In this document: positions 3,643-44,252 of the stretch, piece by piece
Layout: every line of letters begins with the position of its first letter
Position numbering within the stretch: the first letter of the stretch is position 1
Assembly (NCBI GenBank): GCA_023231475.1
Contig: JALJEE010002038.1
Span: 1 to 48,051, forward strand
Length of the DNA: 48,051 bases
Direction: 5' to 3'
From: Seison nebaliae
Lineage: Eukaryota
Position numbers and translations under genes: made by a program
Notes under the pieces: generated by a model
What the model was told of the DNA's origin: nothing
The model's input: only the letters and a program-made list of their open reading frames with translations
The model's database searches: none

Positions 3643-3734
3643 GTAAGTTATCTAATATTCTTATTTTAACTACAAAGAAAATTAGTCCCTACCACATATT
3701 TCTTTCAAATTATCTAATAAAAATTACTTATCAG
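3643..3734 (+). other. Candidate 5'-UTR intron with canonical donor (AAG|GTAAGT..TTATCAG)
   Basis: Perfect U1-type donor at 3643, AT-rich 92-nt body, CAG acceptor 18 nt before ATG 3753. No reading-frame test is possible in a UTR. Confidence 0.55.
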
Positions 3735-3752
3735 AATAAATGTTGTATCATA

Positions 3753-5489
3753 ATGAAGTGTTGTCTGATACTTTTATTCTTTGTGGCAATGGCAACTGCC
3801 GAAGATCTCAGCAATTTCCTTCGGTATGAACCGTCAACATCAAATGATTTCCAATTCAATGATACAATTAATTCAGACATGCTCGAAGTCATACAAGACT
3901 TCGGACGAGCTGGTAGTGGTGATTGTGGACCATGTCCAACAGATATGGATTGTGAATTAGATGGTTCAATTCCCGAACCTTACAATGCAATAAAGCAACA
4001 TTATAATAAAAATTCCAATTGTCAATGTGAAAGGAAAGATTATGTGACATTAGATGAAAAATATTGTCAAGATTTATTCGTTATAAAATATAATCTTGAT
4101 TTCTATTCATTAAAAAAAGATGAGCCAACTCCGTCAGCTTTAGAAGAACAAGTTACTCTTTGATATACTTCCTTCTAAATTTTAATTCATTTCTAATCGT
4201 AGTTAAAAGCATTATTAAATATAAATCAAGATATTTATATCAAAGTAAATATTGATCCGAAACCGGTCATTATATCATACGGCGGAGAGGATTATTACAG
4301 AAAATCAGCTGGAATGATCTTCGGTTCTCCTCAATCGTTTTTTTCTCAAAGAGTCACCTCATCATTCTTACTGTTCGAACAACTCATAAAAGACACAGTT
4401 ACTAATAAAAGAACGGTTGTGGAAAATGGAACTTCCTCCGGAGAAGATGTTGAAAAAGCTTTTTTGGGAAACATTTTATTGTCACCTGATGTGAAAGCGC
4501 TTCCAATTACTATTAAACGGGTAACGGTAGTTGGAGATAACGAGAATTGTAAAGTACAAACTCAATCTGGTGAATGTATCGGTTATTATGCTCCACTTCA
4601 TTTTATCAGAATTAATCCTAATTGTCTTTTTTTATTATTAAAGATTATTGTAATGGTAAATATGTTAATAATGAATGTGTTTGTTCCACTCTTTATTATG
4701 GAGAGAATTGCGACAAAACGTATTTACCATATATATTATTAGCCGCCTTTATTGTTGGATTTATGACTTTAATTGGAATTCCCTTACTCGCATGGCGACG
4801 AGGAAAACCTTGGAAGAATGTCGTTAACAGAAATAGATCAGTTGACTTAAGTGGCAGAGATGCATCATCGAATTTTAGCAAAATAATGTTCGGCTCAGTT
4901 AATAGCAGCATACGTAAGAGAAATGTGACAAACATGGAATCTGAGCAGAATCATGAATTATATCAGAATTATGACGAATACTTTACGAAGGAAGATGCAG
5001 AAAGGTTTGAAAAACTCAACACAGTCATCGAAAATACAAAAAACATTGTTAACTTTTTTTGGAAAATAATATTCTTGAAACTTTTTGTGTTAATTTAAAT
5101 AGGACCCAGGTACTGGTGGTGTTATCAATCCCATGTTCCTTACCAGCACTACAAATTTTTTAACTATTCCCAAAATAAGACCGATAGTTCGGAAAGAAAT
5201 GGATGAAACAAATCCAAATATTTTTGCTACTGTCGACATAAAACCAATGTCCAGTTTATTTGGTCATGTTATCAAAGGCAATCACAATGTTCAAGTCCCA
5301 GAATTACCAATGGATTTCTTTAAACTTCCAAGAATCAAATTATCGAGCGACACCGAATTCTCCTTACCATCCACTAGATCATCATTCAGTAATAATATTG
5401 ACAATAATAATGCTGATGAAGATGAAATGAATATTTTCCATCTAAACAACAGATTCTTTCAGCAAAATTACAAACGTTGGAATAGATAA
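3753..5489 (+). CDS. Single-pass type I membrane protein: signal peptide, EGF-like, possible SEA-like spacer, EGF-like, TM, cytoplasmic tail (~522 aa, 4 exons)
   Basis: Exons 3753..4151, 4203..4581, 4644..5047, 5103..5489; introns 4152..4202, 4582..4643 and 5048..5102 keep the frame. Signal peptide MKCCLILLFFVAMATA; EGF end CVCSTLYYGENC; TM YILLAAFIVGFMTLIGIPLLAW followed by RR. The SEA assignment is inferred from architecture only. Confidence 0.8.
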
Positions 5490-6114
5490 TTATATTATCT
5501 TTACAATAAACATTCTTTAAACTCTCATCAATTATCCATAACGATGCATCTTAACCGGTTCAACAATCTTTTATAGTTAAAATTATTTATTATTTTTTTA
5601 TTTTCTTCTGTTTAATTTTATGTAGTTGTGTCTTATTAAATTTTATTTTTTATTATATCTTTATTATTAAATTTTCCTTTCAAATATATTGGCAGCGATT
5701 ATATCGAGTCCAAAATATGCCCCACCAAATTCCTTAAAATAAATTAATATTAATGATTTTTTAATTCGTTTCCGTTACGAACGTCTAACTCACTTCCACA
5801 TTACGGTAATTTAAACGATGAATTCTTTTAGAAATTAAAGAAACCGTTATATTTCCCATTATCAATATCATGATGGTTAAATAAACAAGTTCAAAGAGAA
5901 TATACTAGTGGAATTTCATAATCGATTAATGATTATAATCGTTATCAAGAGAATAATAAAATCTTGGACAATAAATAAAATGGAATAAGAAGTTTATTTA
6001 GAAATAAAAATCCATATTGAGTTTTATATCACTGTTTGGAGAATATGTATATTGATTGTTGTCCATTTAGTTGTTTTGATAACATATGTTTGTTTTGTTT
6101 GGAGAATGTTCGTA

Positions 6115-7072
6115 CTATATTTCTGTTTGCTGTCTAAAATTATAATAATCGATGGAATCTTGAGGACGAATATGTTCTGGAAATGATTCATATGTCCGAG
6201 ACAATTTTTTACTTTCACGTCGTTGCTTTTTCTTATCACGACGTTTCTTGTGTCTTCGACGTTCCTTTTCTATTATTTCATTTTCATCGAAGTCATCATC
6301 GTCGAAAATTCTTTCAACTACGTCCATCGGAATGATTTGCGGTTGACTATATCCACCAGGAACTTAATAAGACATTTTCTACAAGTTTTTTATTATTGAA
6401 AAGCGAATAAACTTTGATATTCATCTTGCATGAATTCTTGTAGAAACTTTTCATCGAGAACGTCATTTTCATCCTCTTGTCTCTCGTCATCATTAGCAAT
6501 GACAATAATCGAATCCTTCCTGATTTTTTGATTTTCATTATCTAGTATCTTCGGTTCGATAATTATGGAATAACAGAAAACTGCAGCTACCAAAGCTAAT
6601 AAAGTTACTTAAAATTCGAATTATAAAAATGAGAGAAATATAATTAATGAGAACTTGCTGATACAATAGCGGCAATTTTACCATTTCGTTTGTTGATTTG
6701 TGAAATTGAATGAATTGGATCAACGCCAATATTAAAAAAAATTTTAGCTGTGAAATTTTCTCCTAATGTGCAAGTGAATATTCCCGAATCCACTAACTGA
6801 ACAGATGCAATCGTTAAGGTCGTTCCATTGGAATAAAAACGAATTTTAAATTCATCATAAGACACTTCTTTACTTGGATGATGCCAAACGATTTCATCGT
6901 TGTCATTAAGAGTGAAATTCTGTAATCGTTCCAAAGGACAATCGAACGTTATCATATCATTCAACTTCGCATGATACATCCAATAATAATCAATTGTTAG
7001 ATCATCAGAAAATTTGATTATTTCTCCTGATGTCCCATAGATGACAAGGAGAATGGTTAAAATACGAAACAT
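6115..7072 (-). CDS. Single Ig-domain type I membrane protein (~286 aa, 3 exons)
   Basis: Exons 7072..6655, 6607..6413, 6362..6115; introns 6608..6654 and 6363..6412. Signal peptide MFRILTILLVIYGTSG; Ig hallmarks FDC..IVW..LTIASVQLVDSGIFTC; splicing completes the TM IAAIVSA|ITLLALVAAVFCYSIII; the tail ends TEI*. Confidence 0.85.
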
Positions 7073-9877
7073 TTCCAACTCATAAGAGGACAAACAAACG
7101 ACGAAGCAATAGTATGTTGAATAATTAAAAAAATTATTAATTAACTGAAGTTCACGATTACAACGAGCATTAGATCAGAGTAGACATTCGCCTCTTTTGT
7201 ATGTAAATGAAATATATTTACATATCTCAACACTTTTTAGTCAAGAATTAATTATCTTCTAAGTTCTTTTGTTGTTAATAGTTAAAGTGTTGTTAATGCT
7301 ATTTGAGGTGTCAAATCCATTAAATGAGAGTCAGGCCCATATTCCATTAGAATAGTTCACATTCCACCTAAAATCTCTCTCTAAATGTCTTTTTGAATTG
7401 AATGCATATCGTAATGATGTGCAATATGGAAATACATGAAGCTAATCGTAAACATAGACATCAAACTTTAAACATTTAAACGTTTAATGGAGAATACGTG
7501 AAATATTACGATTTGGATCGATGATTTGTTGAAGATTTTTCGAATTAATATTATTCACCAAGAAATCATTGAATAACTAAATAACTTGGTAAAAGTCTGT
7601 TTATTCAAATACGTGTTGAAATGAAAAAGAAATAGATTTATTCGGATGTTGCATCATAAAAAAAGAACTCCTGATGATAACTTGTTCATTTCGAAGCATT
7701 GACCTTCAACTTCTAAGATCAATGCTTAATGTGAAAGAATATTCATAAAATCATACTTGTTTCAATTCGACAGGGAATTTTTCTTATATCGGAAAGATTT
7801 ATTAGAACTTGATGCAGTCGTTCCCCTCAATTGGTAATTATGATAATTTTTCACTAAATGAACTGATGCCGTTACACATATTATTATTCCACAAGAATTC
7901 GTTCCTTTTATCTTTCCGGATAGTCTTGATAATAATATGGTTAATATCAATATACAAATCATCATATTAGATGGTTATAACATTGGATCCTTATCTTTAA
8001 CATGTTAAATTTACTACACATTTTTGAAAATAAACTTACAAAAACTTGTTAGGTGCAAAATCGATAGGGCGAAAATTCATCTTCATTTTGTCGGATCGGT
8101 GATGTTGGATTGTGTGGAGAAGTAATTGCTTAAATTGATAGCGATAATATTTAGTTATTAAATGTTTAGGAGGAGATACAAGACCTGGTAATTTAGGCAG
8201 AAGGCCATCCCAAACATTACCATTCTTTCTTTTGTTTATTCCTATGACGATATAACATATATGGTATGAGTTATAAGTAGAGCAGATTTTTCTTCATTCC
8301 TCTATCTTCAAACAAATCACCAACTTCTTACATGAACGAACAGATTCTTTAATATTTCAATACATTTCTTCGCACAAAATCAAATTTTATTCATGAATTA
8401 GAGAGATTGAAATAAATAAACTCCGTTAAATGGGAAGTAGGAAGATTTATGATTAAAAATAAGAATTCCTTTCGTTGAAAATGATAAAGAGTTATCCGAT
8501 AAATAAAGAAATTTTATTGATGGAGATCCCCAAATGTTTTTTTCCCTAACATGTTTTATCATTGGCGAATATAAAAGATGAGGATATTGTGAAGGTCAAT
8601 AGGACATATAAGTGAATATGTTAACATCTGGTGAGAAAAAAAAGAATTGAGTTGTAAAAGTGTCTGTACCGTTGGAATGGAAGACCAAGAAAACAAACGA
8701 AACATTTGATATTTCTACATTTTTTCCTCCTTCTTCAAATTTACTTTCCATTTTTTCGTTATGCTTCCAACCAAGAAGATTGATGAAATTGATCTACTTT
8801 TGAAAAGTTTATGTAAGATTGCAACAGTAGTCCACCATCGGTTATGACGGTAAGAAATGAAATTTTGGTAGAATAAGTGAAATATATACATCAAATTTCA
8901 GAGGATGTATCGAAATTTTCCTTTTTCCCACTTTCTTTATTCATCGACGATTGTTCGAACGGTGTTTGTTCAAGATGAACGTTTATTAGCTGTTGTCTAG
9001 TAACTGTAACAAGTTGTCTTTATAATTCATTTTCCTACCATCGCATTCTACTGTACGATTATCATACTTTTCATTTATTCTACGTCCGTTCATATTTTAC
9101 TGTCCTTTTTTCAATTGATCTACTATCTATCTCCAGCCCACCACTCCTTTCTTCAAACCATAGGTATTTGAAGAGTTTTGAGGGGGAAGATACATATGTA
9201 AAGGAAAGACGTTGAGGAAACGACGATATATGTAAGTCTGGTTATCTGCTGAGCAAAGATAATGCCACTGGAACCAATTGTTGATCGAATACTACTCAAT
9301 CAGTTGATCATAATGGAAGAGATTGAACGGTTATCATTTGAAAGAAATGGTCAGTGTTGAATGTTCGGTATAGAATGTCTAGAATAGTTCGTGGAAACAG
9401 GAAATAAATTAGAAGAAAATCTAATCGTCAGTTGTTATATTCATATGATAATAACAGGGGAAATGAAAAGATATCGGACTGGATCGATGAACATCGTTTT
9501 TAGTGAATTCCACTCATTCCAGACCGAAGATGGATTGCCAACGAACATATATGGAACTATTCTGTCTCTCCCTCATCGCCTTCTCTTTTTCATCGATCCG
9601 TTCTGATGGAAATACACTTTTATCTATCATCATTACTTATAATTATATAAGAATGATAATGAAGTTAATAATAATAATTGATGATCAAATTATTATATCA
9701 TATAATTTCCTTTATCAGTGAAAAAAAAAGTTTGTTTTAAGTTCTTCTGATTGAAAGTTATCAATCTCATCATAGTCTCATCTTCAAATTGTTTCTTATT
9801 TTTGTAATTCATTCAACTAAAAGAAAGAAGATTAATAAATGGTATCTTCAAACTAATTTCTTTTCCATAAATATCAG

Positions 9878-10176
9878 ATCTGTATTCCATTCAACCACAT
9901 GATAATACTCCGCTTCCATATAACGATGTAGTAAGAAGCATGATACGAAAATTCCTAGATAAGACGACGAAAAAACAATTGATTCGAACGTCGTCTAGTT
10001 ATGACTTGCCAACGTATGTCAATTCTATGATGTACATTGATTCGAGTTGGAACGGAAAAGATAATCTTGATCTAAAAATGATTACGACAATCAACAATTC
10101 AACTGAAATCACTCAATTGACAGCATCTACTCCTAAAATTATCAGTACAATAAAACCGTCAGACGTCCAACAAAAA
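9878..10176 (+). CDS. Probable upstream coding exon of the ASPP gene
   Basis: Open frame between a CAG acceptor (9877) and a GTTAGA donor (10177), phase-0 compatible with the acceptor at 18345. The peptide LYSIQPHDNTPLPYNDVVRSMIRKF weakly resembles the second half of the ASPP N-terminal RA/ubiquitin-like domain. The start exon was not located. Confidence 0.5.
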
Positions 10177-12324
10177 GTTAGATTTTTCATTTTTATTTAT
10201 CTTCTTTTTCCAATCTCATCATAATCCATATTTTTCCCTAAAAATATCATTGAATTATTATTTTTAATTGAAGTCTCTTATGAAATATACGACGTGATAA
10301 TAGAAAAATTATGAAATAATAATTTCATTATTCTCTTCGAAAAAAACATTCAATTAACACTTCGGTACTATTTTCAAAAAAAACATAAGAACAGAATATG
10401 TAGTTGAATAGAGAATTGAATAAACTTATCCGTTTAACAACATGTTAAAACTAAACTTTGTTTGTTGAATTCGAAAAATCTATGTTCATTATTCATCTGT
10501 TTCATGCGATATGACGAAAGTCGTAAGCGAACGCTCCATTATGAAAATTTCTCACGCCCAATACCACTTTTTTCACGTATTTGTATCAAACTGAATTTAT
10601 TCGGATCTCTGCTACCTTATTTCCTCACGATCGAGTTTCTAATAAGTGTTATATTTATGAGCAATTCCCTGACGATATTCAGATTTTACGATCAATTTAT
10701 GTGAACGAATATTCTCACAACTAACATTCTTTATTGGAGAAGTAATTAAAATATCAGTTAATCATTCAGTTATTCATCGATCAATATTCAATAAGATTGA
10801 AGTCGATTTTAAGTTTGTCGATATATTTTCATATAAATAATAATTTCGCTTAAGATTTTGACATTTCGGATTAATTTCATATGAAGATTGATAAAGAAAT
10901 AATTACTATTTGTAAAGAAATCCAATAGAATTATTAATAAAAATCTTTATTATAAGTTTCAATTAAATTCAACCGGTTCTCGTAACTACCTCCTCGAGCT
11001 ATCTTGCTATATAATTCATTATCGATTCGATAATATTGAACTTCATATTAAGTACGTTGATTACCAATGGAGTCAGTCAAATTGACAACATTTATCGAAC
11101 GGAGGAATTTGAAGAATGAAAAGTAAATAAATGCAATTTTATATTTTTTTGATATCATGATTGGTAGTGTAGGCATCTATGGAAATATGACTAGATATGA
11201 TGCGGTTCATGATGTACATCGTTTTGGACGTCCACGTACGTATAAATAAAATCTATATTCAAATAAAGATTTCAAATACCAAATGACTTATTGGGAGTAG
11301 TTGTATTTCTAGAGGCATGTGTAGTTTTGTTTATAAAGGTCTTATATGTAGATGTATAATAAAAGTATGACTGGTTATGTACCTGTGAAACGGAATGTTC
11401 GGACATTAAACGGATTGAGGTGGAGGGAGTGAAAATAAATCACGTCGTTATTATCTTTTCTCTCTTATCATTTAGTCTCATATATATCGAAATTTCGAAA
11501 AAAACATCACTGTCATTATCATCTTTTTTGTTGTTTTTTCTTCATTCGTTCCAATGAGGTCTTCTCCATCCGGCCTGTACAGCTTTCTTCGAACCTCTAT
11601 TATGTTGTTGAATGAAAGGGAATTTGGTCTTCTTTTTTTCTTTGAATTTCAGTCGAGCGAAACATTTATGACATCTTAAACCACGTTAAAGTTTCATGGT
11701 CTGTTCAATGTCTTTCATTCGATTTATATCTTCATCTTCATTGTTCTACTTATCAACTAAATAGTTAAGGATGATTGTTGTACTAAATAGAATGATCAAT
11801 AATCGACTGTGTACGTCGTTCATTTAAAGATATAGAGACCATAGTTCTTCCTCTGATAATCGTCTAATCCATTTGTCAAACAACGCCTTAAATATAATTT
11901 TATTTTTCTACATATACATACTCTCAAACACACACAAATCTACGTAACCCGACTAAATAGGATTGTATGATATTTATTTTAATTTAGTTTCATATTATTA
12001 TCATTATTTCGGGAATAAGTCTTTAAATAAAAAAAGCAAAGAAATAAGAATTCTTATTATTCCACGAGCACTATCCAACTAACTGATTTGTTAGTTATTT
12101 GAGCAGTTGTATAATTTTATTCGGAATAATTTGAATGAAAATAAAGAAATAAAGTTTTTTCATGATCAGTTGAATAGAATAGAACCCAATAGAAGGATAA
12201 AAGTAGGTGGAGAATTCATTCGATTTCTACAAGTTTTCTTAAAAATAAAAAAAGCTACAATAAGAAATTGACGGAAATGGAGAAACAATAGAAATTTATT
12301 GCTTTTCCCCAAAGATATCAGTTA

Positions 12325-12520
12325 GGGAGATCGTTTCACGCACTACTACTCGTTCTAACAGTTTTCATGACTAAATTCAATAATAGAATCAGACAATTAT
12401 ACGTTAAACATAAAAATTATCCATCGTCAAAAAATTTTCCCATCCTAAGGTTTAGTTGGATAACCAACCTGCATTTGAACACTCCAAAGAAATATTTTTG
12501 AATATTGAATAATAATAATA
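12325..12520 (+). mobile_element. Possible highly decayed LTR-retrotransposon integrase remnant
   Basis: Peptide scraps DRFTHY and FSHPKV*LDNQPAF resemble the two integrase Asp motifs (DRFTK; FGxP..SDNGPxF) in the expected order, with stops and frameshifts. Confidence 0.25.
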
Positions 12521-15500
12521 TTGACAGTTCGTTCCATAAAATTACCTTTTTGACTTGATTTAATTGAAGTATGTCGAATATAATACTATCGAGTAATGAG
12601 AAGGAGAGTTCGTATGCTTAATGGATAGTTTTCCTTTGCACTTTATGCTGTTGAATAGTTACGTAAGTAGAGATTTATGTTGGGCATTTCCGTCTTGCTT
12701 CTATTCGATTATGTCGAAATTTTGTTGAAAAACATAATTTCAAATTTCCTTTGCCTTTCTTTTACTCCAATTTATCATTTATTGTTTCGTCTACTCATAA
12801 TTATCATTCGGATTTCTAACCAAATAATTTTCTTTTTTTTTTGATTGACGATTATTAGAGAGTGTTAACAGAAAAGTTATTTAACAAATACTTCACTTTT
12901 TGATTTTTACTCCAATTCTTTTTCGAATCGCAACGGTTATTGCTTGTTCATTTAGAAAATATGCGCCTGCTGATAGAGGATTTAGGAAAGTGGTTTATCG
13001 ATGAGGAAATGCACATAATTATGACAGGAAGAATAATACCGAAAAGCAAATGAAAATACCATAATTTTAACTGATTCCTTTTACATTACCATTGCCGATT
13101 TATGAATTCGTTCTATAGTTTTTTTCGTAAAAATTTTAATGAATATTATTATCCACGTACCACATATTCTCATATGCTGATAATGAGAAGCTTGTACAAC
13201 AGATTAGCAAATTGTGCGTATAATTTGCGGGTGTGGAAAGTCAAATAATTATCTGCATAAATTGATTCTTAATAAGAAAGAATAAATGTAAATTATCCAA
13301 TAGATTATTGACTGTCGAATAACGGAATGCAAATAAGAAATTCATCGATGAGAAAGGGGAAAGAATATTCAATTATTCAATTTAATATGCATCAATTCTT
13401 ATATCAATATTATGCAGAGTAATTTTAAAGTCATTCTTGTATATCCTCCTCCGAGACATTCAATGACGAAAGATTAAATTTATTTTAATTATGGAATAAG
13501 AATATCATTTTCATTTACTGAAATTATCTCCAACATCTTCAACATTTGACTAATAAATATTGTAAATTGCTCTAACGAAAATAAAATTGTTGAATTATCA
13601 GAAAAAATTTAATTTTTTTTTATAGTTTGTATATTATAAAAGTAAATATTAGTTCGACGATAATTGCAAATATCGTAATTTATGATGGAACGGCAATTAA
13701 TCATCAAACTGTCTGACAATGTGAGTCTGAGTATTTAATAGATCTTCATTGCACGTGTAATTCAATCGTATTAGCCTGTTTATTTTTTGTTAAACTTTAA
13801 ATTCTGTGAATAGTTCCTCATTATTTTGAACAGGTCTCGATCAATTAGCGGACATTGTATATATTCAAGTGACATTATATAATAATTAGTAGGATGAACC
13901 ACCTCGAAAATGAGAATTAAATGGTTATTGTGATATTTAAATTATGTTGAAGAGTTTATTGAATGAGACGTCTTAATAGAGGAAGAGATATTTCAAGTTC
14001 TTAAGTTTCAGAAAATTTCCTTGAAAATACGAAAAATAAACATTATGTAATAAATTGGATTGAAGGATTTCCTTTTTTATGTATTGGTAATTAAAAGGAG
14101 AATTCGAAATATGATAACAAAAAGAATTATTCATATGAAGAAAGTAATAAAGGAATCTCTCGAATTTGGACTTCATAAATTTTCACCAACGTATTATACG
14201 TGAGCGATTTCAATTCACTCACTCATTCTCTTTCATTCACTACATTCATCTCAACAATGATGAAGACGAATGAATGAAAGAAAATTAAGAGATTGACTTA
14301 CATTCTTCCGGTTTCTACTTCGAACCATATTCCTTTCTCGCATGTACACGTTTGACGACTGAATGTTGAGAAATGAAAACCTGAAGAGGAAATAACATCT
14401 GAGTCTCATCAACAACAATATCCCCAATTTCCACGTTACATACTTTTACATATGACAGAAGAAATATTTCATTCTTTAAATATTATTTGAATGAATCAAA
14501 TAAATATTTACCAAATCTTCCCACCAATTCGTTTTAGCCGTATAACGGTCTAACTAATCGTCTTACTTCCCAATTTTCTACTCCTACGTTGACTAGTCGG
14601 GAACATTGACTTTATGTAATGGTGGCTTTCTTCTCAGTTTTCCTGCTAGAACAATATTTATAAGTCATATTCAATGAACCCCAACTACAGTTCCATTGTT
14701 TATTCTATGGTTATTTTTCAATGAGTTATTGGCTATAAAGTCACAATTGCCGTGCATTGTTTTCATTATTAAAATTGGAAGTTTCCTTTAAAATCTTTCA
14801 GTTACTCCACATCTCCAATGTAATGAGAAATGTTATGAAAGAATGATTGGAAAAAACAAAGTTCATTCTGTTCTGAATAACATCATCAAATGATTATCAT
14901 TCTAAAATTTGACAAGTAGCACGCATAATCATTAAAATTGTTCTTTTGTTATCAAGAAAAGAGTTTGTCAAAGAGCTAATGAGAAGAAAAACAACAAAAG
15001 AACTAAAGAATTGTGATTATAAAAGTTGAATTGTTATTCAGTTGGTCAGAGAATTATGTAACATATTTATCATATTTTTGACATGTTAATTTTATTTCTT
15101 TAAATTACTAAATATTCCACTGGTGAAAGAACATGAGGAAACGACAAGATTATCATCAAACAATTTTCAAGCTAAATTTGCTTTCCTCAAAGTTCTTCTT
15201 ATAAGACTTATGGGTGAAATCCATTAAATATTGAGCTTATTAAATGTCCGGTGTCCAAGTTGGAACCAACTTGTCTCTAGTTCTCTTATATTCATTACTT
15301 TGTAGTAAAAGTTGGAAATGAAGTGACAACTGTGAAGAGAACTATTCCATGATAGAGTAACGCAACTCCATTTAATTCAATTGAATGCTATGTGGCAAAT
15401 GAGTAAAGAGAAAAAATTTTATCAAGTTTCAACTTCTCAAATCGACGTAGGTAAACGAGGAGGGACGACCAGATTAACGTAAAAGAGAAAACTTTAGAGA

Positions 15501-17012
15501 GAAAAAGAGAGTTTTGGTACCGAAAAAAATGTATTTAATAAATAAGTTTAAGGAGATGAAACGGTTGACAATCCACCATTTTTGTATCCTTTAACCTCTT
15601 CCACCTTCCCTCCCACCGCAAAACTTTTCGTCCTGTGGATAACGAAATAACAATAGTGATCGCTCGAAGGAATTTTATTTCTACATGGAAATTATAAAAA
15701 ATATTACAATTGGTCATCATCTTGTCTTCGACGATTACTAATCAACGTTCATATCAATTAACTGAAGTAGAATTATATTGTGTTTGAGAATGTTTTGTTT
15801 ATATTCCATTCATTTGTTCGATCTCTTCTTGCTACCACTCTCACAAATGTAGCTCGCTAGATGTGTGTGTAATAAATAAATAAATAAATTTAATAAAACT
15901 TCTCCAATAGATGGAGGTCGATGTAGTTCGGAAAGAAATGAACGGATGAATTAAAATAATTTTTATTTGTAGGAAAAATAATAATTATTAATTATAAATG
16001 GAATTGAACGATATTTTGTTTATGTTCTATTCGATTCATAAGAAATTCTTTTCATCTATTTCATTTTATCAGATGGAAATCGACATTTATATTGCCGATT
16101 ATTTCCTTCTATTTAATTTCGACATAAATGTATTCCTCCTATATATGAGCTACACGATTTTTATGGGAAAATATTAATTAAATGAATTTTCTTCCATTTC
16201 GAAAATAGTGGAATGAAGATAAATTTAATTTTCGAAGTAAATTTTTTTTGAGAAATTTACAATTGTACCAGGAGAGACATTTGTACCTTTAAAACGTAGG
16301 AGAATGGATAAATGATTAATAAAATCAATGTTTCTAATACTTTGCATTGGATGATAGATGTAATGAGTCGTTAAATGTAAATAAATTGTTTGATAATAAT
16401 GTAACCGGGACGACATACACATAAATGATTTGACTTCTGTCACATATTCGAAAATGGAGAATAGTTAATTCTTTCCTTGCCAATACGGGAAATGTAGTTA
16501 TAATGAAATGAAATATTCTCATTTTATGTCTTTCTTGCCTCTATGTAAAGTGTTTAGATCGTGCTATTATCACAAATGACAAAGTTAATTAAGGAAATTT
16601 AGTTTCGAAATTGAATCGATTCCTGCCGAATTAATGTAATCGAATTATTGTCAATCTGATTACATAAAGAGTCGATGGTAATTAGAACGATGAAAATAAG
16701 CTTCTTTTTCTAACAATCTCTTCTAAGTTTATTCTATTAAATCTCCATCAAGTACGATGCTAATTCAGTCAACTATGGTTTCCATTTTTTTCTCCACCTT
16801 AATCATCAACAGGATATATGCGCACTACATCGAACTTATTCATACTGAATCATCAATCGTTGCATTGACTATTCTATTGGAAATCAAATGTATCGTGCTA
16901 CTTTTTCTCTAAAGTTCTCTAAAGTAAACGAAATTGTATTGAACAGTTGAACAAGAAACTTTCTTTTCCTTTCAAAGAAATCGACCAATTCTTCCTTTTT
17001 TGGGGGTTTTGT

Positions 17013-17471
17013 TTAGTAAACATTACCACTAACAACAACGAGAGCAACATCATCAACAAAGTCGATAATAATACAAACAATAATTGTAATGAAGTTTCTG
17101 CATTCGGAGCGATATATCCATTTTTTTGTTCGATAAAACTTAATCGGAGAATAATGAACATTTTCAATTCATCCAACAAATGTTGCGAACGTTTTCCAGT
17201 TGAAAAGTATGATTATTTTTCTCATTAATAATTTGCCTGCTGACACTCGAAACTTTTTTCTCCGATTGGTCTACCAGAGTGATGGTACAACCGTTAATCA
17301 CAATACGTATCGTGTTATTGGCGATATGGTTTATTGGGTACACATCGATCTAATAAATAATAGAAGACGAATGAGTTTTGTTCAAAATGATAAACAATTA
17401 ACCATAGAATAATTCCATTTAACTAGAATCGCCAGATTGATAGACAGATAGAAGAATAAAAATTTGTTCAT
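17013..17471 (-). CDS. Candidate small secreted protein (~117 aa, 3 exons) nested antisense in the inferred ASPP long intron
   Basis: Exons 17471..17403, 17349..17191, 17138..17013; introns 17350..17402 (GTTAAT..TTAG, 53 nt) and 17139..17190 (GTTCGC..TAAG, 52 nt). Signal-like N-terminus MNKFLFFYLSINLAILVKWNYS. The 3' end is uncertain. Confidence 0.55.
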
Positions 17472-18345
17472 CTTTATGTTTCGTGTAAGTGAAAAGTTGT
17501 GTTTGATTAGAAGATGTCAGAAATGTTATATCATTTCCTTCGATAGTTCATTTATCTTCATCTTCTCCTTTTTCACTCGTTAAATTGAAGTTTACTATCG
17601 ATTATTTGAAATGGTTTTAATCTATCGCCTGTCGGATATTTACTATCCTTCTCATCATTAACTTCCTGTGAGTTGGTATAATTTTAATTTAAGACATTTA
17701 TGTTTGGAAATGTTGTTTTAGAAAAGAAATTTTTAAATTCTGTATCAGAACTGGTGAATTTAATGAAAAGTTAATGAATGAATAATATAGTTGAGTTAAT
17801 CATTAGTAATGTTTCGAAGTGATCGTTTTGTACTGAAGAATTTTTAAATTATTAAAGTTGATTAATGAATAAATAATCAAATATCATTAAACTACTTCTA
17901 CTGCTTCGTCATTATTATCATCTTCTCACTTATCGTTAAGTTGTTCTTCTTTCTTTATTTACTTTTCATTTCCACACCGATTTCCGTCCATCATAACGAA
18001 TTTGTTGTCATCGAATCTAGTTCAACTGATATTGATCTTGTTTCTTATTTCTATACAGTTCTTCTTCATTTCTTTTTCTTCTGCGACTAATGCTTATACT
18101 ATTCTCTATACTGTACAATTCCACTCTGAAGAAAAGAGTAAGATACGACGTTTAAAATGAATGGAAAAGTAATTTTGTGATTTATTTTATCTGATCATGA
18201 TGATCTTGATAACCTTCAGCTTCTATCAATATTTTGTTAATAAATCAAAAAAATCGATATGGAAATAAAATTTTAATTGTAAAGAGAATTTTAATTAAGG
18301 AAATTTTAATTAAGTCTAATTAATTTTAATTTTATCCATTTGAAG

Positions 18346-21300: not shown

Positions 21301-24300
21301 TTTGTGAAGAAATTACAAAGAAATAAGATATTCATTGATAATCAATATAATGACGATATTGATAATGTGATACATCGAGATCACAATTCCAGTCGAACCA
21401 GTAGTACAAGTAGTCATCAATCGAATTCATTAACAGGAAATCGATTTGGTCGTTCGACGAAAACTAATAATTCAACATCTAATCAATTACAAGCACAAAA
21501 GAATAATATCAATCATCGATTTGCATCGAAGGCTGTTATCGCCAATACTTATATGACGAAATTGGGACCGATGACATTTAATAAAAATTCACAATCCAAC
21601 CAACAACAACAACAACAACATAATTCATCCCTTCCACCAAATCAATATCTTTCTAATCGTCAACAAATGCCCCAACAACAACAACAACAACAACAACAGC
21701 AGCAGAAATTTAATTATAAATCTTCTTCACATAATGAAATGTCGAGGTATGTGAATCGATCAGAAGCGAATCATCAACAACCGAATCATTCCCATCAATA
21801 TCATGAAGAAGAGAAACATATTGATAATCAACACGATACTGGTCGTCTATCATTCCGTCACTATAATCCGAAAGCCATAAAAAAACGTCATTCGATTTCG
21901 GAGAATAATCATGGAACAAATTTGTTGGGGGTGGGTGGAGGAATTGCGACAAATATGAAAGAATTTGATAAGAATAAATATCGAATTTCATCGTCTAATA
22001 CGATATCGAATGAGAAGTATCCTCAAACTGAGAAGGAACATGGAGAAAGGGTTAAATCGACGTCATCTAATATTACAGCATTCTATGTTGCTTCAACCAA
22101 TTTGCCTTGGACGAACTCGTCCGATAGTAATGTGTGGAATCAACATAATAATAAATTATCTCCTTCGATGAATGTAGATAAACATCGAACTCCATCGACA
22201 ATCCATCGGTTCTCTGATAGAAATCTGGAACACCATACGACGAATATGGATAAAAGGAAAAAATTCTTCAATAATGACGATCTCCTTCAACAGGCTGAAC
22301 AGATTAACAATTTAGGAAAAATTAGTAATAATTCACCTAATCATCAAAAGCAACATTATTCTACAATGAAAAATGATAGAATTATTAATAATAATAATAA
22401 TAATAATCGGAAACCATCGCCAATGACAAGTCCCAGAAGAGAAGGTAATAATCAGATAGAAGTTAATACAGATAATTTTTGTGGGAGATTAGATAACGTA
22501 AAATCAGTTGGTACATCACCGATTCCCTTGATAATTCTCAATCGATATAAATGTGGAAGTCAACAATCAGATAAATTAGACAATCGTAATAACCAAACTG
22601 AATTGATGTCAAGAGAAAATAATGTTTTCATTTCGTCAATCGATAATCAGAATAATGATGCACAGTTATCTTCCAGAGTGTCATCACCATTATCAGCAAC
22701 AGCGAATTCAATGTCATTAGGAATATCAACAACCAGTACGATGAAAGATAATGAAAGTAAGTCAAATAATTATTTGAATATTGTTGGGAATCAATCATCG
22801 AAATTATTCCCATCTCCAGCATCCACTACGTCATCAGTCTTATCTTCTCCCATGCTCATAAACAAATCATCGTCATCGCCAAAGAAAGAGAAGGAGAAGA
22901 AAGGAAGAGTTGATCTAGTAAACAATTCATGTCTCGATTCTTGTGTAAACACTTCAACTGATCATCAATTGGAGGAAGCAGTGAAGAGTAGTATCAGGTA
23001 TACGTCATCCTTCTATTCAGCTGGAGATACACATAACATAATTTATTCTCACATTAATCCATATTGTGCAGTTGTCACTAATTCAAACGTATCTGATATC
23101 AGATCAACAACTCCCGCCACAACATCCTTCTCATTAACAACTGTTGGAGGGTCTTCATCTACATCTACATCAACATCTACAATGGCAACAACACTCCATC
23201 CTTCTTCTCAATATCAAAATTCCACAACGAATTTATTTGATGATAAGAAATTCCTTCAAGATCCTTCACAATTTCCATCACGTTTCAATTCGAAATCAAT
23301 CAACTCATCTCTTTCACCCAAATCGTCATCATCAACAGCGTCTTCTGTCACTTCATTCCTGTCAGATCAGACTAAGGTTAATGAAGGGACTACATCAACA
23401 AATCCAACAAATTCTATTGGAGGAACAAGTTCTCCAAAAACGAATTGTGAAGAGAAAAATAATACGAGTTACAACAACAATAAAATTAATAACGCAACTT
23501 ACCATATCTCTTTGGAAACAACGACAACAACGACAAGTACAACAACTCAAATGAAATCGAATAATAAGAAAACTTCACCTAAAACATCCAGAATGGATAG
23601 TGCACCCATTTTGAAAGTGCAGACACACACAACACTTAAGAGTACATCAGCCAGAAATATTTGCGGAAGTATTATAAAAGATTTGGATGCATTAGATTTA
23701 TCGGAAATTAATGGATCTATAAGCAATAATAATGATGATCGACCGAACGATATGGCAAACATATTACAGACGATGTCGACCGATGTAATGATGTTTGATG
23801 AGCAACCAACTACAATAAATAAATCAGATCTAGCGAAAGATGGAAATACTTTGGGTAAGATTCCTCCTATAACTAAAATTGATGATGGCAAACGAACGTT
23901 GAATGGTTCAACGAAAGTTTTGGAAGGCAAATCCGATGAATTATTAAAGGAAATTCCCAAACCATCATCGTCGACAACAGAAGAGCAAACAGATGGAAAA
24001 ATTGATAATGTTCCATTTCCTCCACCTTCTTCCATCCTCCGTAAGCGTTCGAAATATGCAACGCAGAAGGAGGTGGAAGAGGAGGAGGCGAATAAAAGTT
24101 CAGAGAATTATTCGACAACAAATACGATTGGAACAAACTCAACAAACACATTGACATCCAAAAGTAAGAAGTTGAAAGCATCACTTTTCCTGCTTCGATC
24201 GAATAAGGGAATAGAAGATGTAACAATGTCCAATCGGAAGATTGCTTCAGAAGATGATGATCTCATCAATCGTAACAATATTCCACATTATGATGATTAT

Positions 24301-25518
24301 CGTATTCAGAAGAAGAATGCTACAATTGATCCGCATGCTCTCTTATTAGATGGTGCTGTAGAAGGTGAATTAACAACTGTTGTTGATAATTGTATAATTA
24401 TAGGATCTGTAGAAGCATCGAAACCAAATGATGAAGGTTCATTTTTTATCGTTTTCTTATTTTAATTATTCATTTTCTTTTATCTAATTAAGGTATTACT
24501 GCGTTACATAATGCGGTTTGTGCTGGACATGATAATATTATTCGATGGTTGATATTTGAAGCTGGAGTAGATGTGAATGTATGTGATGTAGATGGATGGA
24601 CGCCTCTACATTGTGCTGCATCGTGCAATGCAACTGATTTGGCAGGAATGTTAATTGAATCTGGTGCATGCTTATGGTCACGTACTTCAATCGACGATGA
24701 GATGCCAATCCATAAATGTGAATTGAAAGAAATGGAATATGATAAATGTTATAAATATTTGAGAGGTTTATTTTCCATTCCTTCTTTATCTCTAAAGTTT
24801 ATTAATGTTATTTTGTAGAAATGCAAACACGAATTGGTCGAATGAATAATCGAAAAGTTTATGCGATTTTCGATCATCAATCCAATGAGAACGACGAACT
24901 TAATGTTCACATTAATGACGAACTTACCGTTCTCTCTTATGGAGATGAAGAACATTTGGAGACATTAGAATCGGATGAAACTCTACTTTTGAATGATGCC
25001 AAATGGTGGAAAGTGAAGATTACCAATTCCTATGAAGATAGTCGAAATGGTCAAATTGGATTAGTTCCTCTCAACATTCTTGCCGTTAAACATTTCTCTC
25101 TTTATTCTACTCTTCACTTTATTTACTTTAAACATGAAAATTTTAGTTATATCCAAGAATTATGCCACAAACATTATCAGATAATCATCGAAAAGCATTT
25201 TTTATCAACACCAACGGAAGAGATTTACGTCCACATTTATCCTCCACGAACATCGACGACATTTCAATGAATAAGAAAGAGAACTGGTTATCATCACCAT
25301 CAGAAAATGACGAGAATACGAGTAATGCACCGTATATTCCATCGGGAGACCGCTTGATCAATACAACAACAACAACACCAACAACAATAACGAATAATAC
25401 ATCTTTAAAGAAAACAGGAAATGTTGACATTTCAATGAAAATGGAAAATAACAATAGTACGAGTAATGAATCAATAAGATTTGATCGATCTCCATACAGT
25501 CAGGAATGCAACGCTTAA
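18346..25518 (+). CDS. ASPP: ASPP family (apoptosis-stimulating protein of p53 / PPP1R13) ankyrin-SH3 protein, >2300 aa, 5' end upstream
   Basis: Exons 18346..24436, 24493..24765, 24819..25084, 25147..25518; introns 24437..24492, 24766..24818, 25085..25146. Splicing restores DPHALLLDGAVEGE..PNDEG|ITALHNAVCAGH..DGWTPLHCAASCN, then an SH3 domain ending GLVPLNILA|LYPRI. There is an N-proximal coiled coil and a long N/S/Q low-complexity middle. Confidence 0.93.
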
Positions 25519-27152: not shown

Positions 27153-27292
27153 AATTCTTTCAAATTGAATTAGAAAAAATAAGAGAAAAGTGAAAATAAT
27201 TCCGATTCTCTACAAGTTTTCACTATTTTTTTTATATCCAAATTATAAATTTATTTTAGTTCCAATTTATCAGTTAACAATCAGTTTTACTA

Positions 27293-31034: not shown

Positions 31035-31221
31035 TTACTGATAATTATTTCTATATGAATCATCCGTATATGATGAAACGACATGATAACTGGTATTGCT
31101 ATTGTTGTTGTAATTGTTGCCATGTGAAATGTATTGTGGTTGTTGATGATTACTATCATTCTGATTTGTTCCATTCATATTATAACGACTTGAATAATTT
31201 GATTGATTATTTCCAGATATC

Positions 31222-31253
<32 letters not shown>

Positions 31254-33326: not shown

Positions 33327-34139
33327 GATGATAACGAAGAAATTCGAGTGGAGATGTGTTGAATGAAAATATTTAATTAGACAAGGGGGACAACTCTTAG
33401 AACATGTCCGATCGTTCTACCCCGTCGTTATACAGAAAGATATATGTCAAAAAATTTTCTAGAACTAATTCATGAAAAAATTAAAATTTATCAAATTCTT
33501 CCTCCATTTTATACAACATTCTCATTCCACGCATGAGCACAAAAAAAAAGAAGTTAATTCAACAAAATATTTTTTCTCTTCCTAATCATCGTCTGTGACA
33601 TCACACCAAATGACAACATAATGAGATGAGTAAATAAATTTATTCAAAAAATAATAATTGGGAAGAATTGAAGGAACTATTGGATTTGTTTAAATTTTAT
33701 TTAATTAAGGATCAAGTAGGAGTAATTTCATTAATTTATATCGTCCAGACAGTTTCCACTCTCCTCCTATTCTCTTCACTCCCATTACATGCCCAACAGC
33801 AACATGTCGTTGCAATTTGACGGATCAGAGTACGTACTCTTCCATGCAACATAATAATCAATTTTTTTCTTATTCCACATTTTTTATGGGATCAAATTTT
33901 TTTTCTTTCTAATAATGTTGTTGTTTAATTGATTTGTGTTTCCGAGAAAGATATTGACTTCTAAAACTTCCCAGAGTGTTCTTGTTACCAGTTAGATAAT
34001 TCTTAAATTCCAATTTCAAGCTTTGGATATTGAATGACCAATTTATTCCACATTTTCATTGTGAAATGTGTTCTTATGATAGTTATGTATAAAAAAAAAA
34101 CGTAAAGCTAACTGTGGAAGAAAGTCATCTAATTCTACA

Positions 34140-35842
34140 ATGAATAAGGAGATTGCTCGAATATTTCAAATTTTAGAAGAAAATGATCTCAATGAATTCA
34201 TAGAGTTATTCTAATTAATTTTTCACATTAAAACTAATTTAGCGGCATTCATCTCTTCATCCTTCTCCTCTCACACAAACACACATACACACACATGTGC
34301 ACTTAAATATCTAGTTGTATGATTCATAACAAATTATGTTTCATTAAGAGAAATAAAGAGAATAAATGGAATATCCATAAGCTTCTCCTTAACACTCACA
34401 ATCAGATTGATACGGATTCAATAAATAAATTATGTCGTTAACAATTACCATAATTACGCCCACCATCAATTTAACATTTATTTTAATCAAATTTCTCAAC
34501 TAATCGAAAGATGGACAAAATGTACGAATTTCAAACTGTTCAAAATGGCAGTTCGATACTCACAAAGTTGAGGAAATGACAATTGGTCATTTTCTAAAAG
34601 AAAAATGGAAAAATAGTTCAAATGATCGATACTATTGTAAAGACTGGCATTTATTCAAGTTTATTCATTGTTCTCATTATTTAATTTAAAAGTATTCTTA
34701 AGAGAATTACCAAATTTAAATTTGTATGAGTTACCAGAAATTCTGAAAGAAGATTATCTGAATAATTATTCTCTCAATTTTCCTAACGGATCCGATTATC
34801 GTTTCGTTTATTTGGGAGAAGAGAGAACATGGACTCCTTTGCATCATGACGTGCTTGCATCATATAGTTGGTCAATAAACTTAAGTGGAAATAAAAGATG
34901 GTTATTTATAATCGAAAGAGGAACGTTAAAAAATGTGAAGGATGTTAGATCGATAATGAAATGTGAGAATGAATATTCGAAATATAAGAATATTTCTTAT
35001 CGATTGGAATTCATTGAATTATATCAATGTCTAATTTTAGATATGATTCAACCAGAAGATTTCTTTGTCTTTGTTCCTTCTCGACTTTATCATCAAGTTC
35101 ATAATTTAGTTAGTTTAAATTTTTATATAAATTTTTTTTTATAATTTTTCCTAATAATTTCTTTCTTTAAATTTCTTGTGATAAATCTGAACTATATATT
35201 TTTCTTGTAATATAAGACGGATGTATTATCAGTCAATCATAATTGGTTCAATCAATATTCGATCGAAAATGTTCTGAATTATATCATCGACACCTATGAG
35301 AAGAAAATCAAACCAGAATTGAAACACTTACCTTCATTTCCATTCAAGCGATTGATGGAACAAGTTTATTCTAAACAATTTGAAACGTTTGTCAAATCTT
35401 TTTTGTAAAGGAATTGCTATCGAATCTATTGGCGTTCGATCTTATTCAAATTGTCGATTTGATTTCTTTTAATATCAATCATAAGTTTCCCAATCTAAGA
35501 TTACCATCCGAAATAAAGAAATCGATAAAATTGAAAAATTTATGGGAATATCAACATTTTAAATTATTTGAATTTTGGATTAGATTATCATTATTGGATA
35601 GTAAACAATCGAATTTAGAACTATCCAAATTAATCAATTTAATTACAACAAAAATTCTTCTCAAAGATGATTATTTGATAATTTTGATATTTTATTATTT
35701 TTGTCAACATCATTTATGGAAGGACAATACCGTTGAATTAGTGACTTTTCATCATGAATTGTTAGAGATTCATGAAAAGATCGATTTAAATGAATTAAGA
35801 ACGTTCCATAAGACGTATTTGGAGAGAAGAACATTTTTTTAA
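34140..35842 (+). CDS. JMJD4: JmjC-domain 2-oxoglutarate oxygenase JMJD4 (~439 aa, 6 exons)
   Basis: Exons 34140..34204, 34315..34436, 34511..34658, 34703..35108, 35217..35363, 35411..35842. Motifs YCKDWHL, DYRFVYLG, WTPLHHDV..SYSWSIN..GNKRW, VPSRLYHQVHNL|TDVLSVNHNWFN; the HxD..H metal triad is intact. Confidence 0.92.
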
Positions 35843-36251
35843 GAATAAAAATAATTTTATTTTTGTAAATTCTTAATTGTGGTGGACGTATTTTGTAAAA
35901 GAAAAAAGAATAATTAAAAATGAATAAAATGGGACAAATGTTAAAAGAAAGATAATCGGATAGACATATAAATGTATCTCTCCGAAAAATGTATCTTCCA
36001 AGAAACGAGGAATGAGAATGAAAAAGTTCTATATAAACTCTTTGTTGTCTTTCAATGAACTATGTTGAAAAATTTGAATAGAATGAGAATAAATGTAGAA
36101 ATTCTTACCAAAATTATTGAAAATAATTTATACTGTAATCTGTAAATAATTTCGACGGAATTGATAAATTTGATGTTCTGCTCTCAAAAGAGAACTTTGA
36201 AAATTTTTCATAAAATATTTTCCTTCATTCTTCGAAATCATTTCACCGATT

Positions 36252-37207
36252 TCACAATTTGCCTGAGCAGATCAAACATGCAAATAAGATGCACAATATC
36301 TGCACGAGAATGATACCAGCGGCCACGCAAGCCATTAATATTTGTTTCGAGGCAATACCATCTAGAATAACAGGAATGCATCCTCGAGCACCATTGTTCT
36401 TCGTTGCGTCCACACCATCATTACAATCGTTTCCACTGATATCTTTCTTACAACAACTCATAGGAAACTCGTCAGCATCTTCCACTTTCTCATAAGCGAA
36501 CGTACTGTAATCCACACCTCCATTAACACCACAACATTGGGCTGATGCTTGAAGAATATCCCAAACGTTCTCTGAATTTGCCCCTTCATCTTTCTTATAA
36601 GTTGCTTTCAATGATTTCACAAACAACTCCTTCAATGGTTTACCTTCACCCTTCATCATAACTATTGCGACGATAACAACAATTAACTGCACTAATAATA
36701 TCAGACTGACTGATACAATATACTGACAAAGAAAAAATTATTTAATTAATTCCTTTCATACTTGGATGTTTCAATTTACTAACGAGAATTAAACAAATTC
36801 GGTTTCCGGTACATGCGCCACAACACCCAAGCAACGCGATACAACACATTACGGAACCAAAAATAATTAAAACAAGTGTGGCACTTTTGATGATGTCCAA
36901 TTCCATAAGTTCTAATGAAAGAAGAGAAATGATGGATTGATGTTAAAGTTTTTAGGAAACTTTCGATTTTTTCTGTATCAGGTATGAAATTCATAATGCC
37001 TCGTATCAATTTGAGCTCCTTGTCAAATTTTAGATAAATCCCAACTGCCAATATTCCACCACCCGCTAACTACAAATTGAAAATGATGGTATTATTGTAA
37101 TTTAATTTTAGTCTAACGAAAAACACGATATTGATCAATATGATGATCAGTTTGGCTAGACAGCCACATCCACCTTTACCTTCACCTGAACCTGTACCCT
37201 TACCCAT
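36252..37207 (-). CDS. Tetraspanin (~265 aa, 4 coding exons)
   Basis: Exons 37207..37118, 37069..36961, 36911..36784, 36722..36252; introns 37070..37117, 36912..36960, 36723..36783. Four TM segments plus LGCCGA, CCG, PMSCC and GC motifs. Confidence 0.93.
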
Positions 37208-37237
37208 CGCACTGATTATTACTCACAAAAAAAGTAT

Positions 37238-37342
37238 CTGGAGTTGAAAAAAAAGAGTAAGTTGAAAATGAAATTCTTGGTATGGAATAAAAAATGCTAT
37301 TTCATGATTAATATAAACAGGAATAGAAAAATCGATACTTAC
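37238..37342 (-). other. Candidate 5'-UTR intron with canonical donor (GTAAGT..CTCCAG)
   Basis: Minus-strand GTAAGTAT at 37342, strong pyrimidine tract CTCTTTTTTTTCAACTCCAG, acceptor 30 nt before the tetraspanin ATG. Confidence 0.5.
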
Positions 37343-44040: not shown

Positions 44041-44099
44041 AGTGGTCGTCAGTAATTTGGTAGTTCGTCAGTAAGTTGGTAGTTGGTCAGTAAGTTGGT
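44041..44099 (+). repeat. 19-bp tandem repeat x3 (tagttcgtcagtaagttgg-like)
   Basis: gtcagtaatttggtagttc gtcagtaagttggtagttg gtcagtaagttggt is directly visible. Confidence 0.8.
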
Positions 44100-44252
44100 G
44101 TTGCTTAAATTTGGTGAACGACGTGGTGGTTTAATAATGGTGCTCAATTTTGTCACATATTATTCGACGAGGTGGTGAAATGGTGATTAAAAATCGAAGT
44201 ATCAATAACGTAAAAATTTAATTAATGTATAATAATTAACTAACTTTTGAAC

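What the first reader, a model, noticed from the sequence alone, without database searches (positions are those of the whole stretch)
3643..37342. Possible two intron classes: canonical GTAAGT in 5' UTRs versus GTT in coding regions
Seen: just upstream of two start codons are textbook intron-like segments, 3643..3734 (+, AAG|GTAAGT..ATCAG, 92 nt) and 37342..37238 (-, GTAAGT..pyrimidine tract..CCAG, 105 nt). All six coding introns of these same two genes are GTT. Inference: normal U1 pairing may persist for cap-proximal introns (the cap-binding complex is known to aid U1 recruitment at first introns), while internal short introns use another route or another U1. That would be a position-dependent dual splice code. 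It rests on two unverified cases.
Basis: partly seen in the sequence, partly recalled or inferred. Interest (0 to 1): 0.75.

Follow-up and report, generated by a model that had tools for sequence, protein, structure and literature searches.

The report
Rotifer introns start GTT; exceptions unproven
In this stretch of a marine rotifer's genome the introns placed inside coding sequence begin GTT instead of the usual GTA/GTG, while the two GTAAGT segments in front of start codons are only predicted introns and are likely exceptions tolerated by the same splicing machinery rather than a second, position-dependent code.

Summary
The window's proteins are filed as Seison nebaliae, a seisonid rotifer. 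Both segments exist as described. The GTT bias is real and stronger than reported: 16 of 16 introns in four database gene models begin GTT, and 21 of 21 with my frame-based calls (two ambiguous, two doubtful). Homology and a diverged second sequence type support the junctions. The two GTAAGT segments look intron-like (G-poor), but splicing is not shown, each has a competing GTT donor, and 12 of 24 GTAAGT sites in the window show the same GTAAGT-YAG-ATG layout. The strict cap-proximal rule fails: JMJD4's first placed intron (110 nt, 65 nt after ATG) is GTT. Most likely one spliceosome prefers +3 U and tolerates otherwise good GTAAGT donors. A true dual code is about 12% likely. I found no paper on Seison donors; Entamoeba is the precedent, and this scan noted GTT donors earlier in Bonamia.

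The parts
3643..3734 (+). Candidate 5' UTR intron of gene 1 (P0002), AAG|GTAAGT..ATCAG, 92 nt; splicing not shown
   Evidence: G-poor, lowest 0.4% of non-coding windows; branch-like CTAAT at -21; weak pyrimidine tract
3647..3734 (+). Rival reading: same acceptor from the GTT donor TAA|GTTATC, 88 nt
   Evidence: species-trained score 5.8 against 3.9; 4.4 against 7.1 when +3 is ignored
3643..3685 (+). Rival reading: 43-nt coding intron that joins ATG 3635 in frame to the main ORF; weak acceptor
   Evidence: frame; acceptor score -1.0
3753..5489 (+). Gene 1, predicted secreted or membrane protein without a Pfam family; four GTT introns at 4152-4202, 4582-4643, 4898-4948 (doubtful), 5048-5102
   Evidence: start at 3753 inferred from the hydrophobic leader
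37238..37342 (-). Candidate 5' UTR intron of the tetraspanin, TTA|GTAAGT..CCAG, 105 nt; splicing not shown
   Evidence: strong acceptor (score 9.2); composition like coding introns, lowest 2.8% for G
37238..37318 (-). Rival reading: same acceptor from the GTT donor CCT|GTTTAT (81 nt); a further GTT donor AAA|GTTTTA lies at 37363
36252..37207 (-). Tetraspanin gene (P0001) with three GTT introns: 37117-37070, 36960-36912, 36783-36723
   Evidence: Pfam PF00335 over 2-224 of 225; diverged contig aligns 36778-36913
34140..35842 (+). JMJD4-like gene (P0004) with five GTT introns; the first (34205-34314, 110 nt) starts 65 nt after the ATG: counter-example to the first-intron rule
   Evidence: diverged contigs break at the introns
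9940..25518 (+). ASPP-like ankyrin/SH3 gene (P0003), four GTT introns, one of 8,169 nt (doubtful)
27216..27259 (+). GTT-starting candidate intron (44 nt, no G in its core) 33 nt before the ATG at 27293
793..870 (+). GTTAGT-starting candidate intron (78 nt, pyrimidine tract) upstream of the eIF4E-like ATG at 927
7079..7145 (-). GTTAAT-starting candidate intron (67 nt, weak acceptor) upstream of the Ig-domain gene's ATG at 7072
35294..35331 (-). Chance control: AAG|GTAAGT..pyrimidines..TAG followed by ATG, antisense to a homology-supported JMJD4 exon
37673..37725 (.). Non-coding block kept in the diverged second sequence type, holding the window's only TGACGTCA palindrome; possible promoter element upstream of the tetraspanin donor

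Best explanation
This rotifer's coding introns begin GTT, and one ordinary U2-type spliceosome that has likely shifted its preference to U at intron position +3 would also accept the two predicted GTAAGT donors as minority exceptions. Shown: T at +3 in 16 of 16 database-model introns, with loose +4 to +6 and a loose exon end. Inferred: a single determinant (an A opposite +3 in U1, or a changed U1 protein or U6 contact) fixes +3 U. Inferred: a GTA donor pays one mismatch there but passes if its other positions are good, so surviving GTA donors look textbook (GTAAGT). Inferred: if such donors cluster near the cap, that reflects relaxed demands on cap-proximal donors, a quantitative bias, not a second code. 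At least one of the two segments is probably a real 5' UTR intron, with the donor used undecided.
For: +3 T in 21 of 21 placed coding introns against 42% of GT dinucleotides in the window; 0.42^17 = 4e-7 for the 17 best. JMJD4 homology runs across all five junctions; diverged contigs align over exons, end at +6 of two GTTAGT donors and restart at acceptors. Coding donors match the canonical U1-complementary 9-mer at 4.4 positions on average and a +3U variant at 5.4; the two GTAAGT donors match the variant at 7 and 5. Ignoring +3, they score 7.1 and 5.1, inside the coding range 3.7-7.9. First and long coding introns are GTT. In Drosophila, cap-proximal first donors are weaker, not stronger (PMC4889658, passages), which fits GTAAGT being the tolerated off-consensus form here. 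Entamoeba shows that a GUU donor can co-evolve with U1.
Against: No U1 gene or spliceosomal protein was examined. If +3 were one pair among equals, some coding introns should be GTA with compensation; none of 21 was placed so (95% upper bound 13%), although one ambiguous Ig-gene intron could be GTAAAA. Both GTAAGT cases fall upstream of start codons (P 0.007-0.13) in the two most G-poor upstream regions of 9 genes, and both end in CAG, which only 4 of 21 coding introns do; this leans towards a real UTR class. The database models are predictions, so their GTT uniformity is partly circular. Several lineages with shifted donors keep a standard U1.
Confidence: 0.5

Rival explanations
1. The GTAAGT motifs are incidental. 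The regions are either unspliced leader/promoter sequence or are spliced from neighbouring GTT donors (3647; 37318 or 37363).
For: Each site has a GTT donor that outscores it on a matrix trained on 17 coding introns. 12 of 24 GTAAGT sites show GTAAGT-YAG-ATG, one antisense to a conserved exon. In gene bodies GTAAGT is no commoner sense than antisense (4 against 5). Both putative first exons hold an upstream ATG.
Against: The matrix penalises +3 A by construction; without +3 the GTAAGT donors win. Co-occurrence with start codons and with G-poor tracts is unlikely by chance. GTAAGT is over-represented, 21 against 11.4 expected, rank 40 of 4096 hexamers.
Confidence: 0.24
2. Position-dependent dual code: 5' UTR introns keep GTAAGT and a canonical U1, coding introns use GTT through a second U1 or another route.
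For: 2 of 2 GTAAGT candidates in transcribed-looking 5' regions against 0 of 21 coding donors (Fisher P = 0.004; P = 0.03 if three GTT upstream candidates are counted; all UTR entries unverified). Both end in CAG. Two coexisting intron classes with duplicated recognition factors exist in Fritillaria (PMC13326754, section 21).
Against: JMJD4's first placed intron is GTT and close to the start. GTT candidates lie upstream of three other ATGs. One variant U1 would pair with both types equally well. Two unverified cases, picked by resemblance to the textbook.
Confidence: 0.12
3. The acceptors at 3734 and 37238 are spliced-leader trans-splice sites, and the G-poor tracts are outrons.
For: Bdelloid rotifers trans-splice a leader to more than half of their transcripts (as cited in PMC1925144, passages). 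Trans-splicing would remove the upstream ATGs at 3635 and 37372. The tetraspanin acceptor is strong.
Against: The monogonont Brachionus showed no leader; nothing was found on Seison. A donor upstream of an acceptor normally favours cis-splicing (general knowledge). Most other genes in the window lack a strong acceptor before the ATG.
Confidence: 0.1
4. In gene 1 the GTAAGT donor opens a 43-nt coding intron (3643-3685) that joins ATG 3635 in frame, so GTA is not limited to UTRs.
For: The join is in frame and the length is typical.
Against: The acceptor scores -1.0, the added 25 residues come from the G-poor intron-like tract, and 3753 already gives a plausible leader.
Confidence: 0.04

Closest known systems
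Entamoeba transformed donors GUUUGU with a co-evolved U1 (bioRxiv 10.1101/2022.06.08.495308; abstract and Results parts 1-2 of 3 read)
   Same: U at intron position +3 is close to universal; GT-AG ends are kept.
   Different: Entamoeba is intron-poor and strict over +4 to +7 (88-90% GUUUGU). Here genes carry 3-5 introns and only +3 is fixed (+4 A 11/T 8/C 2, +5 G 5, +6 T 13 of 21). This is an animal. Its U1 was not examined.
Two classes of 5' splice site and the +4 A/U switch tied to METTL16 and SNRNP27K (PMC10581693, passages)
   Same: Donor preference shifts between species and classes of donor coexist within one spliceosome, without changes in U6.
   Different: That switch is at +4; here it is +3. 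No link to UTR or CDS position appeared in the passages read. The proteins were not looked for in Seison.
Cap-binding-complex help at the first donor (PMC4889658, passages)
   Same: Gives a reason for cap-proximal donors to differ from internal ones.
   Different: In Drosophila the effect is statistical and makes first donors weaker; it is not a separate code. JMJD4's first placed intron here is GTT.
Fritillaria borealis canonical and non-canonical intron classes with duplicated U2AF (PMC13326754, abstract and section 21)
   Same: An animal with a rewired splice code and a small canonical minority (5% of introns).
   Different: There the terminal dinucleotides change; here GT-AG is kept and only +3 (and often acceptor -3) shifts.
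Spliced-leader trans-splicing of bdelloid rotifers (as cited in PMC1925144)
   Same: Acceptor-like sites shortly before start codons.
   Different: Here a donor-like site lies upstream in cis; no leader evidence for Seison was found.

Membership tests
U2-type GT-AG intron (the two UTR candidates) | GT and AG ends | tested here: met
U2-type GT-AG intron (the two UTR candidates) | Length and composition like the species' introns | tested here: met
   92 and 105 nt against 44-110 nt in 17 coding introns; G 5% and 8% against 8%
U2-type GT-AG intron (the two UTR candidates) | Branch-point-like motif and pyrimidine tract | tested here: inconclusive
   YTNAY at -21 and -24, but five such motifs in each segment; tract present only in the tetraspanin case
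U2-type GT-AG intron (the two UTR candidates) | Removal from the mature RNA at the stated donor | not testable with these tools
   needs RNA junction reads
Entamoeba-type transformed donor | Near-fixed U at +3 | tested here: met
   16 of 16 database-model introns; 21 of 21 placed
Entamoeba-type transformed donor | Strict GUUUGU hexamer | tested here: not met
   +4 T 8, +5 G 5, +6 T 13 of 21
Entamoeba-type transformed donor | U1 snRNA with a complementary change | not testable with these tools
   no genome held; no Rfam match in the window
Cap-proximal (first-intron) canonical class | First introns begin GTA/GTG | tested here: not met
   JMJD4 first placed intron GTTATT, no GTAAGT on that strand upstream within 11 kb; true transcript starts unknown
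5' UTR-specific canonical class | UTR introns begin GTA/GTG, coding introns GTT | tested here: inconclusive
   2 GTA and 3 GTT upstream candidates, none verified
Length-dependent donor class | Introns of about 100 nt begin GTA | tested here: not met
   108- and 110-nt coding introns are GTT
U12-type intron | RTATCCTT donor | tested here: not met
   3 such motifs in the window, none at a candidate or placed donor
+1 shifted-register U1 pairing (lead from earlier scan notes; original paper not read) | Canonical motif moved one base, giving G at +6 | tested here: not met
   G at +6 in 0 of 21 donors
Spliced-leader trans-splice acceptor | Shared leader on capped 5' ends; SL RNA gene | not testable with these tools
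   needs 5' RNA ends; no Rfam match in the window

The most novel reading that the evidence does not exclude
Seison runs two donor-recognition systems side by side: a U1 rewritten to read GUU for coding introns, and a canonical U1 kept for 5' UTR introns, giving an animal whose splice code depends on where the intron lies in the transcript.
Probability: 0.12. Interest if true: 0.8.

Novelty: new variant of a known kind. Interest (0 to 1): 0.45.

Why it matters
An intron-rich animal whose donors are fixed at GUU but loose everywhere else would be a natural test of which spliceosome part reads position +3 and how U1 and thousands of donors can shift together. The known case, Entamoeba, is intron-poor and strict. 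Transcriptome and small-RNA data for the species are reported (PMC8351084 abstract; PMC12256650 passages), so the test is cheap. If GTA donors proved to be confined to 5' UTRs with a second U1, it would be a new kind of position-dependent splice code. If not, the flagged contrast is a minor bias on top of the more solid GTT finding. It also matters for annotation: gene finders trained on GTRAG will misplace exons in this species.

Tried and rejected
No whole genome is held, so no genome-wide donor count or U1 search. Run search: no RNA holder listed; all laid runs behaved as DNA or laid nothing, so no splice junction could be seen. Rfam: no match in the window. Folding: neither candidate is more structured than shuffles (z -0.40 and -0.66); the GTAAGT/ACTTAC complement in the tetraspanin candidate is not significant. 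U12-type and +1 shifted-register readings rejected. Length as the cause rejected. Possible extra ASPP exons near 17158-17484, ending at a GTAAGT, found no Pfam support and are not in the database model; left open. Literature: 9 searches gave no description of Seison or rotifer donor consensus; PMC8351084, PMC12256650, PMC10125929 and PMC9907507 had nothing on it in the passages found. No supplements were opened, and subscription papers are not in the library. Earlier notes on this genome or look-alike stretches: none.
Full report
Source and layout. The window is AT-rich, gene-dense eukaryotic DNA. Three proteins encoded in it are named by their source as hypothetical proteins of Seison nebaliae, a seisonid rotifer. 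I placed ten genes: eIF4E-like, gene 1 (no Pfam family), Ig-domain, ASPP-like, two genes without a clear family near 27 kb, TBP-like, JMJD4-like, tetraspanin and a RING protein. No whole genome is held, so everything below rests on these 48 kb.

Observation. Both segments are as described: 3643..3734 (+, 92 nt) and 37342..37238 (-, 105 nt). The second has a real pyrimidine tract and a strong acceptor (13 of 15 pyrimidines; score 9.2), the first does not (7 of 15; score 2.2, below all 17 training acceptors). The acceptors lie 18 nt before ATG 3753 and 30 nt before ATG 37207. The ATG at 3740 opens an out-of-frame 29-codon ORF; 3753 gives a hydrophobic leader and is my inferred start, while the database model starts at 3789.

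Coding introns. Mapping four database proteins to the window gives 16 introns, all GTT..AG: tetraspanin 3, gene 1 4, ASPP-like 4, JMJD4-like 5. Two are doubtful predictions (an in-frame 51-nt one and an 8,169-nt one). Five more were placed by reading frame (eIF4E-like 1, Ig 2, 27-kb gene 2); two of these are ambiguous, and the first Ig intron could instead start GTAAAA at 6681. A possible third intron of the 27-kb gene had too many solutions and was left out. Over the 21, +3 is T in all, against 42% of GT dinucleotides in the window; +4 is A 11, T 8, C 2; +5 is G in 5; +6 is T in 13 and never G; -1 is G in 5; acceptor -3 is A 10, T 7, C 4. Because the database models are predictions, I looked for independent support. 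A profile of 40 of 149 JMJD4 homologs aligns to P0004 from residue 17 to 336, across all five junctions. Pfam covers the tetraspanin model over 2-224 of 225 positions. The eIF4E domain is split 2-83 and 86-153, with a single GT donor that bridges it. Runs X2-X5 hold, besides the window's own DNA, contigs at depth 3-5 that are about 80% alike; they align over exons, stop exactly at +6 of the GTTAGT donors at 35109 and 36783, and restart at acceptors, with one intron about 83 nt long against 108 here. The letters at those donors were in rows not shown, so their conservation is inferred from alignment ends. Two lineages are reported for the species (PMC8351084, abstract and passages), which would fit.

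Are the two segments introns? For: their G content falls in the lowest 0.4% and 2.8% of equal-length non-coding windows, and the second matches coding introns in composition. Of 9 genes, these two have the most G-poor region at -105..-20; by rank alone that is 1 in 36, with the span chosen after the fact. Two or more of 9 genes with GTAAGT upstream has P = 0.007-0.13. A non-coding block with TGACGTCA is kept in the diverged contigs 330 nt upstream of the tetraspanin donor, which would put the promoter upstream of it (inference). Against: 12 of 24 GTAAGT sites in the window are followed by YAG at 38-120 nt and an ATG within about 35 nt, including AAG|GTAAGT..TAG..ATG antisense to a JMJD4 exon, so the layout itself carries little weight. 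Both putative first exons hold an upstream ATG. Each segment has a GTT donor that could serve the same acceptor: 3647, four bases in, and 37318 or 37363. A matrix from 17 coding introns prefers these (5.8 against 3.9; 5.5 and 5.3 against 1.9), but with +3 ignored the GTAAGT sites lead (7.1 against 4.4; 5.1 against 4.1 and 4.0). So the donor is undecided. My estimate is about 65% that the regions are spliced and about 40% that both use GTAAGT.

Is donor type tied to position? The first-intron form fails on JMJD4: its first placed intron is GTTATT, 110 nt, 65 nt after the ATG, and there is no GTAAGT on that strand between 22757 and 37257; the transcript start is unknown, so an unseen upstream GTT intron is possible but would not help the rule. 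Length does not explain it, since 108- and 110-nt coding introns are GTT. In gene bodies GTAAGT occurs 4 times sense and 5 times antisense.

Mechanism. Coding donors match the canonical U1-complementary 9-mer (recalled) at a mean 4.4 positions and a version with T at +3 at 5.4. The two GTAAGT donors match that version at 7 and 5. A single machine tuned to +3 U would therefore accept them, and would let GTA survive mainly where the rest is good, which makes survivors look textbook. Cap-binding help is reported to go with weaker first donors in Drosophila (PMC4889658, passages), so a cap-proximal excess of off-consensus GTAAGT would need no second U1. All of this is inference: no U1, U6 or spliceosomal protein was seen. 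Entamoeba has a U1 changed to match GUUUGU, but other lineages with shifted donors keep a standard U1 (bioRxiv 10.1101/2022.06.08.495308, Results parts 1-2), and +4 shifts in yeasts track protein loss (PMC10581693, passages). A +1 shifted register, suggested by earlier scan notes on other genomes, is excluded by 0 of 21 G at +6. Trans-splicing remains possible, since bdelloids do it and Brachionus apparently does not (PMC1925144, passages).

Novelty and verdict. Nine literature searches found no account of donor sequences in Seison; supplements were not opened and subscription journals are missing. PMC10599564 (passages) added nothing specific. The scan noted GTT donors before in Bonamia and an unidentified protist (unchecked notes). 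The solid result is an animal with donors fixed at GTT, a new variant of a known kind, shown on one contig. The flagged dual code rests on two unverified segments, fails in its first-intron and length forms, and is not needed to explain the data: probability about 0.12. Interest 0.45.

Noticed in passing
window, 21 placed coding introns: Acceptor position -3 is A in 10 of 21 (AAG), T in 7, C in 4, so the 3' site is also off the usual YAG.
   Followed up: partly
window 37673-37725: Non-coding block kept in the diverged second sequence type, with the window's only TGACGTCA; a half site ACGTCA also lies at 3570, 73 nt before the other GTAAGT.
   Followed up: partly
window 27152 (-) and 27293 (+): Two genes lie head to head with inferred start codons only 140 nt apart, each with an acceptor-like site just before the ATG.
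   Followed up: partly
window 9232-9940 and 10177-18345: The ASPP-like model's first exon has an acceptor-like CAG at 9877, so more exons may lie upstream; GTAAGT at 9232 and several GTT sites could serve it. The 8.2-kb predicted intron holds an ORF at 17158-17412 and a GTAAGT at 17485.
   Followed up: partly
window 18346-24436: A single exon of about 2,030 codons, rich in N, Q and S, precedes the ankyrin and SH3 domains.
   Followed up: no
window 33326-31035 (-): Intronless TBP-domain gene with long N/Q/H-rich tails, head to head with JMJD4.
   Followed up: no
window 43100-41638 (-): RING ORF preceded by short, stop-interrupted ORFs and a cluster of GTAAGT/GTGAGT at 43096, 42992 and 42961; may be a decayed gene or mobile segment.
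   Followed up: no
window 43900-48051: Higher-GC end with broken reverse-transcriptase and MULE transposase fragments.
   Followed up: no
window 927-2749: eIF4E-like gene with long N- and C-terminal extensions around the domain.
   Followed up: no
window 37342-37257 (-): The donor hexamer of the tetraspanin candidate is complementary to the branch-like ACTTAC near its 3' end; the pair survives in the centroid fold but the segment is not more stable than shuffles.
   Followed up: yes
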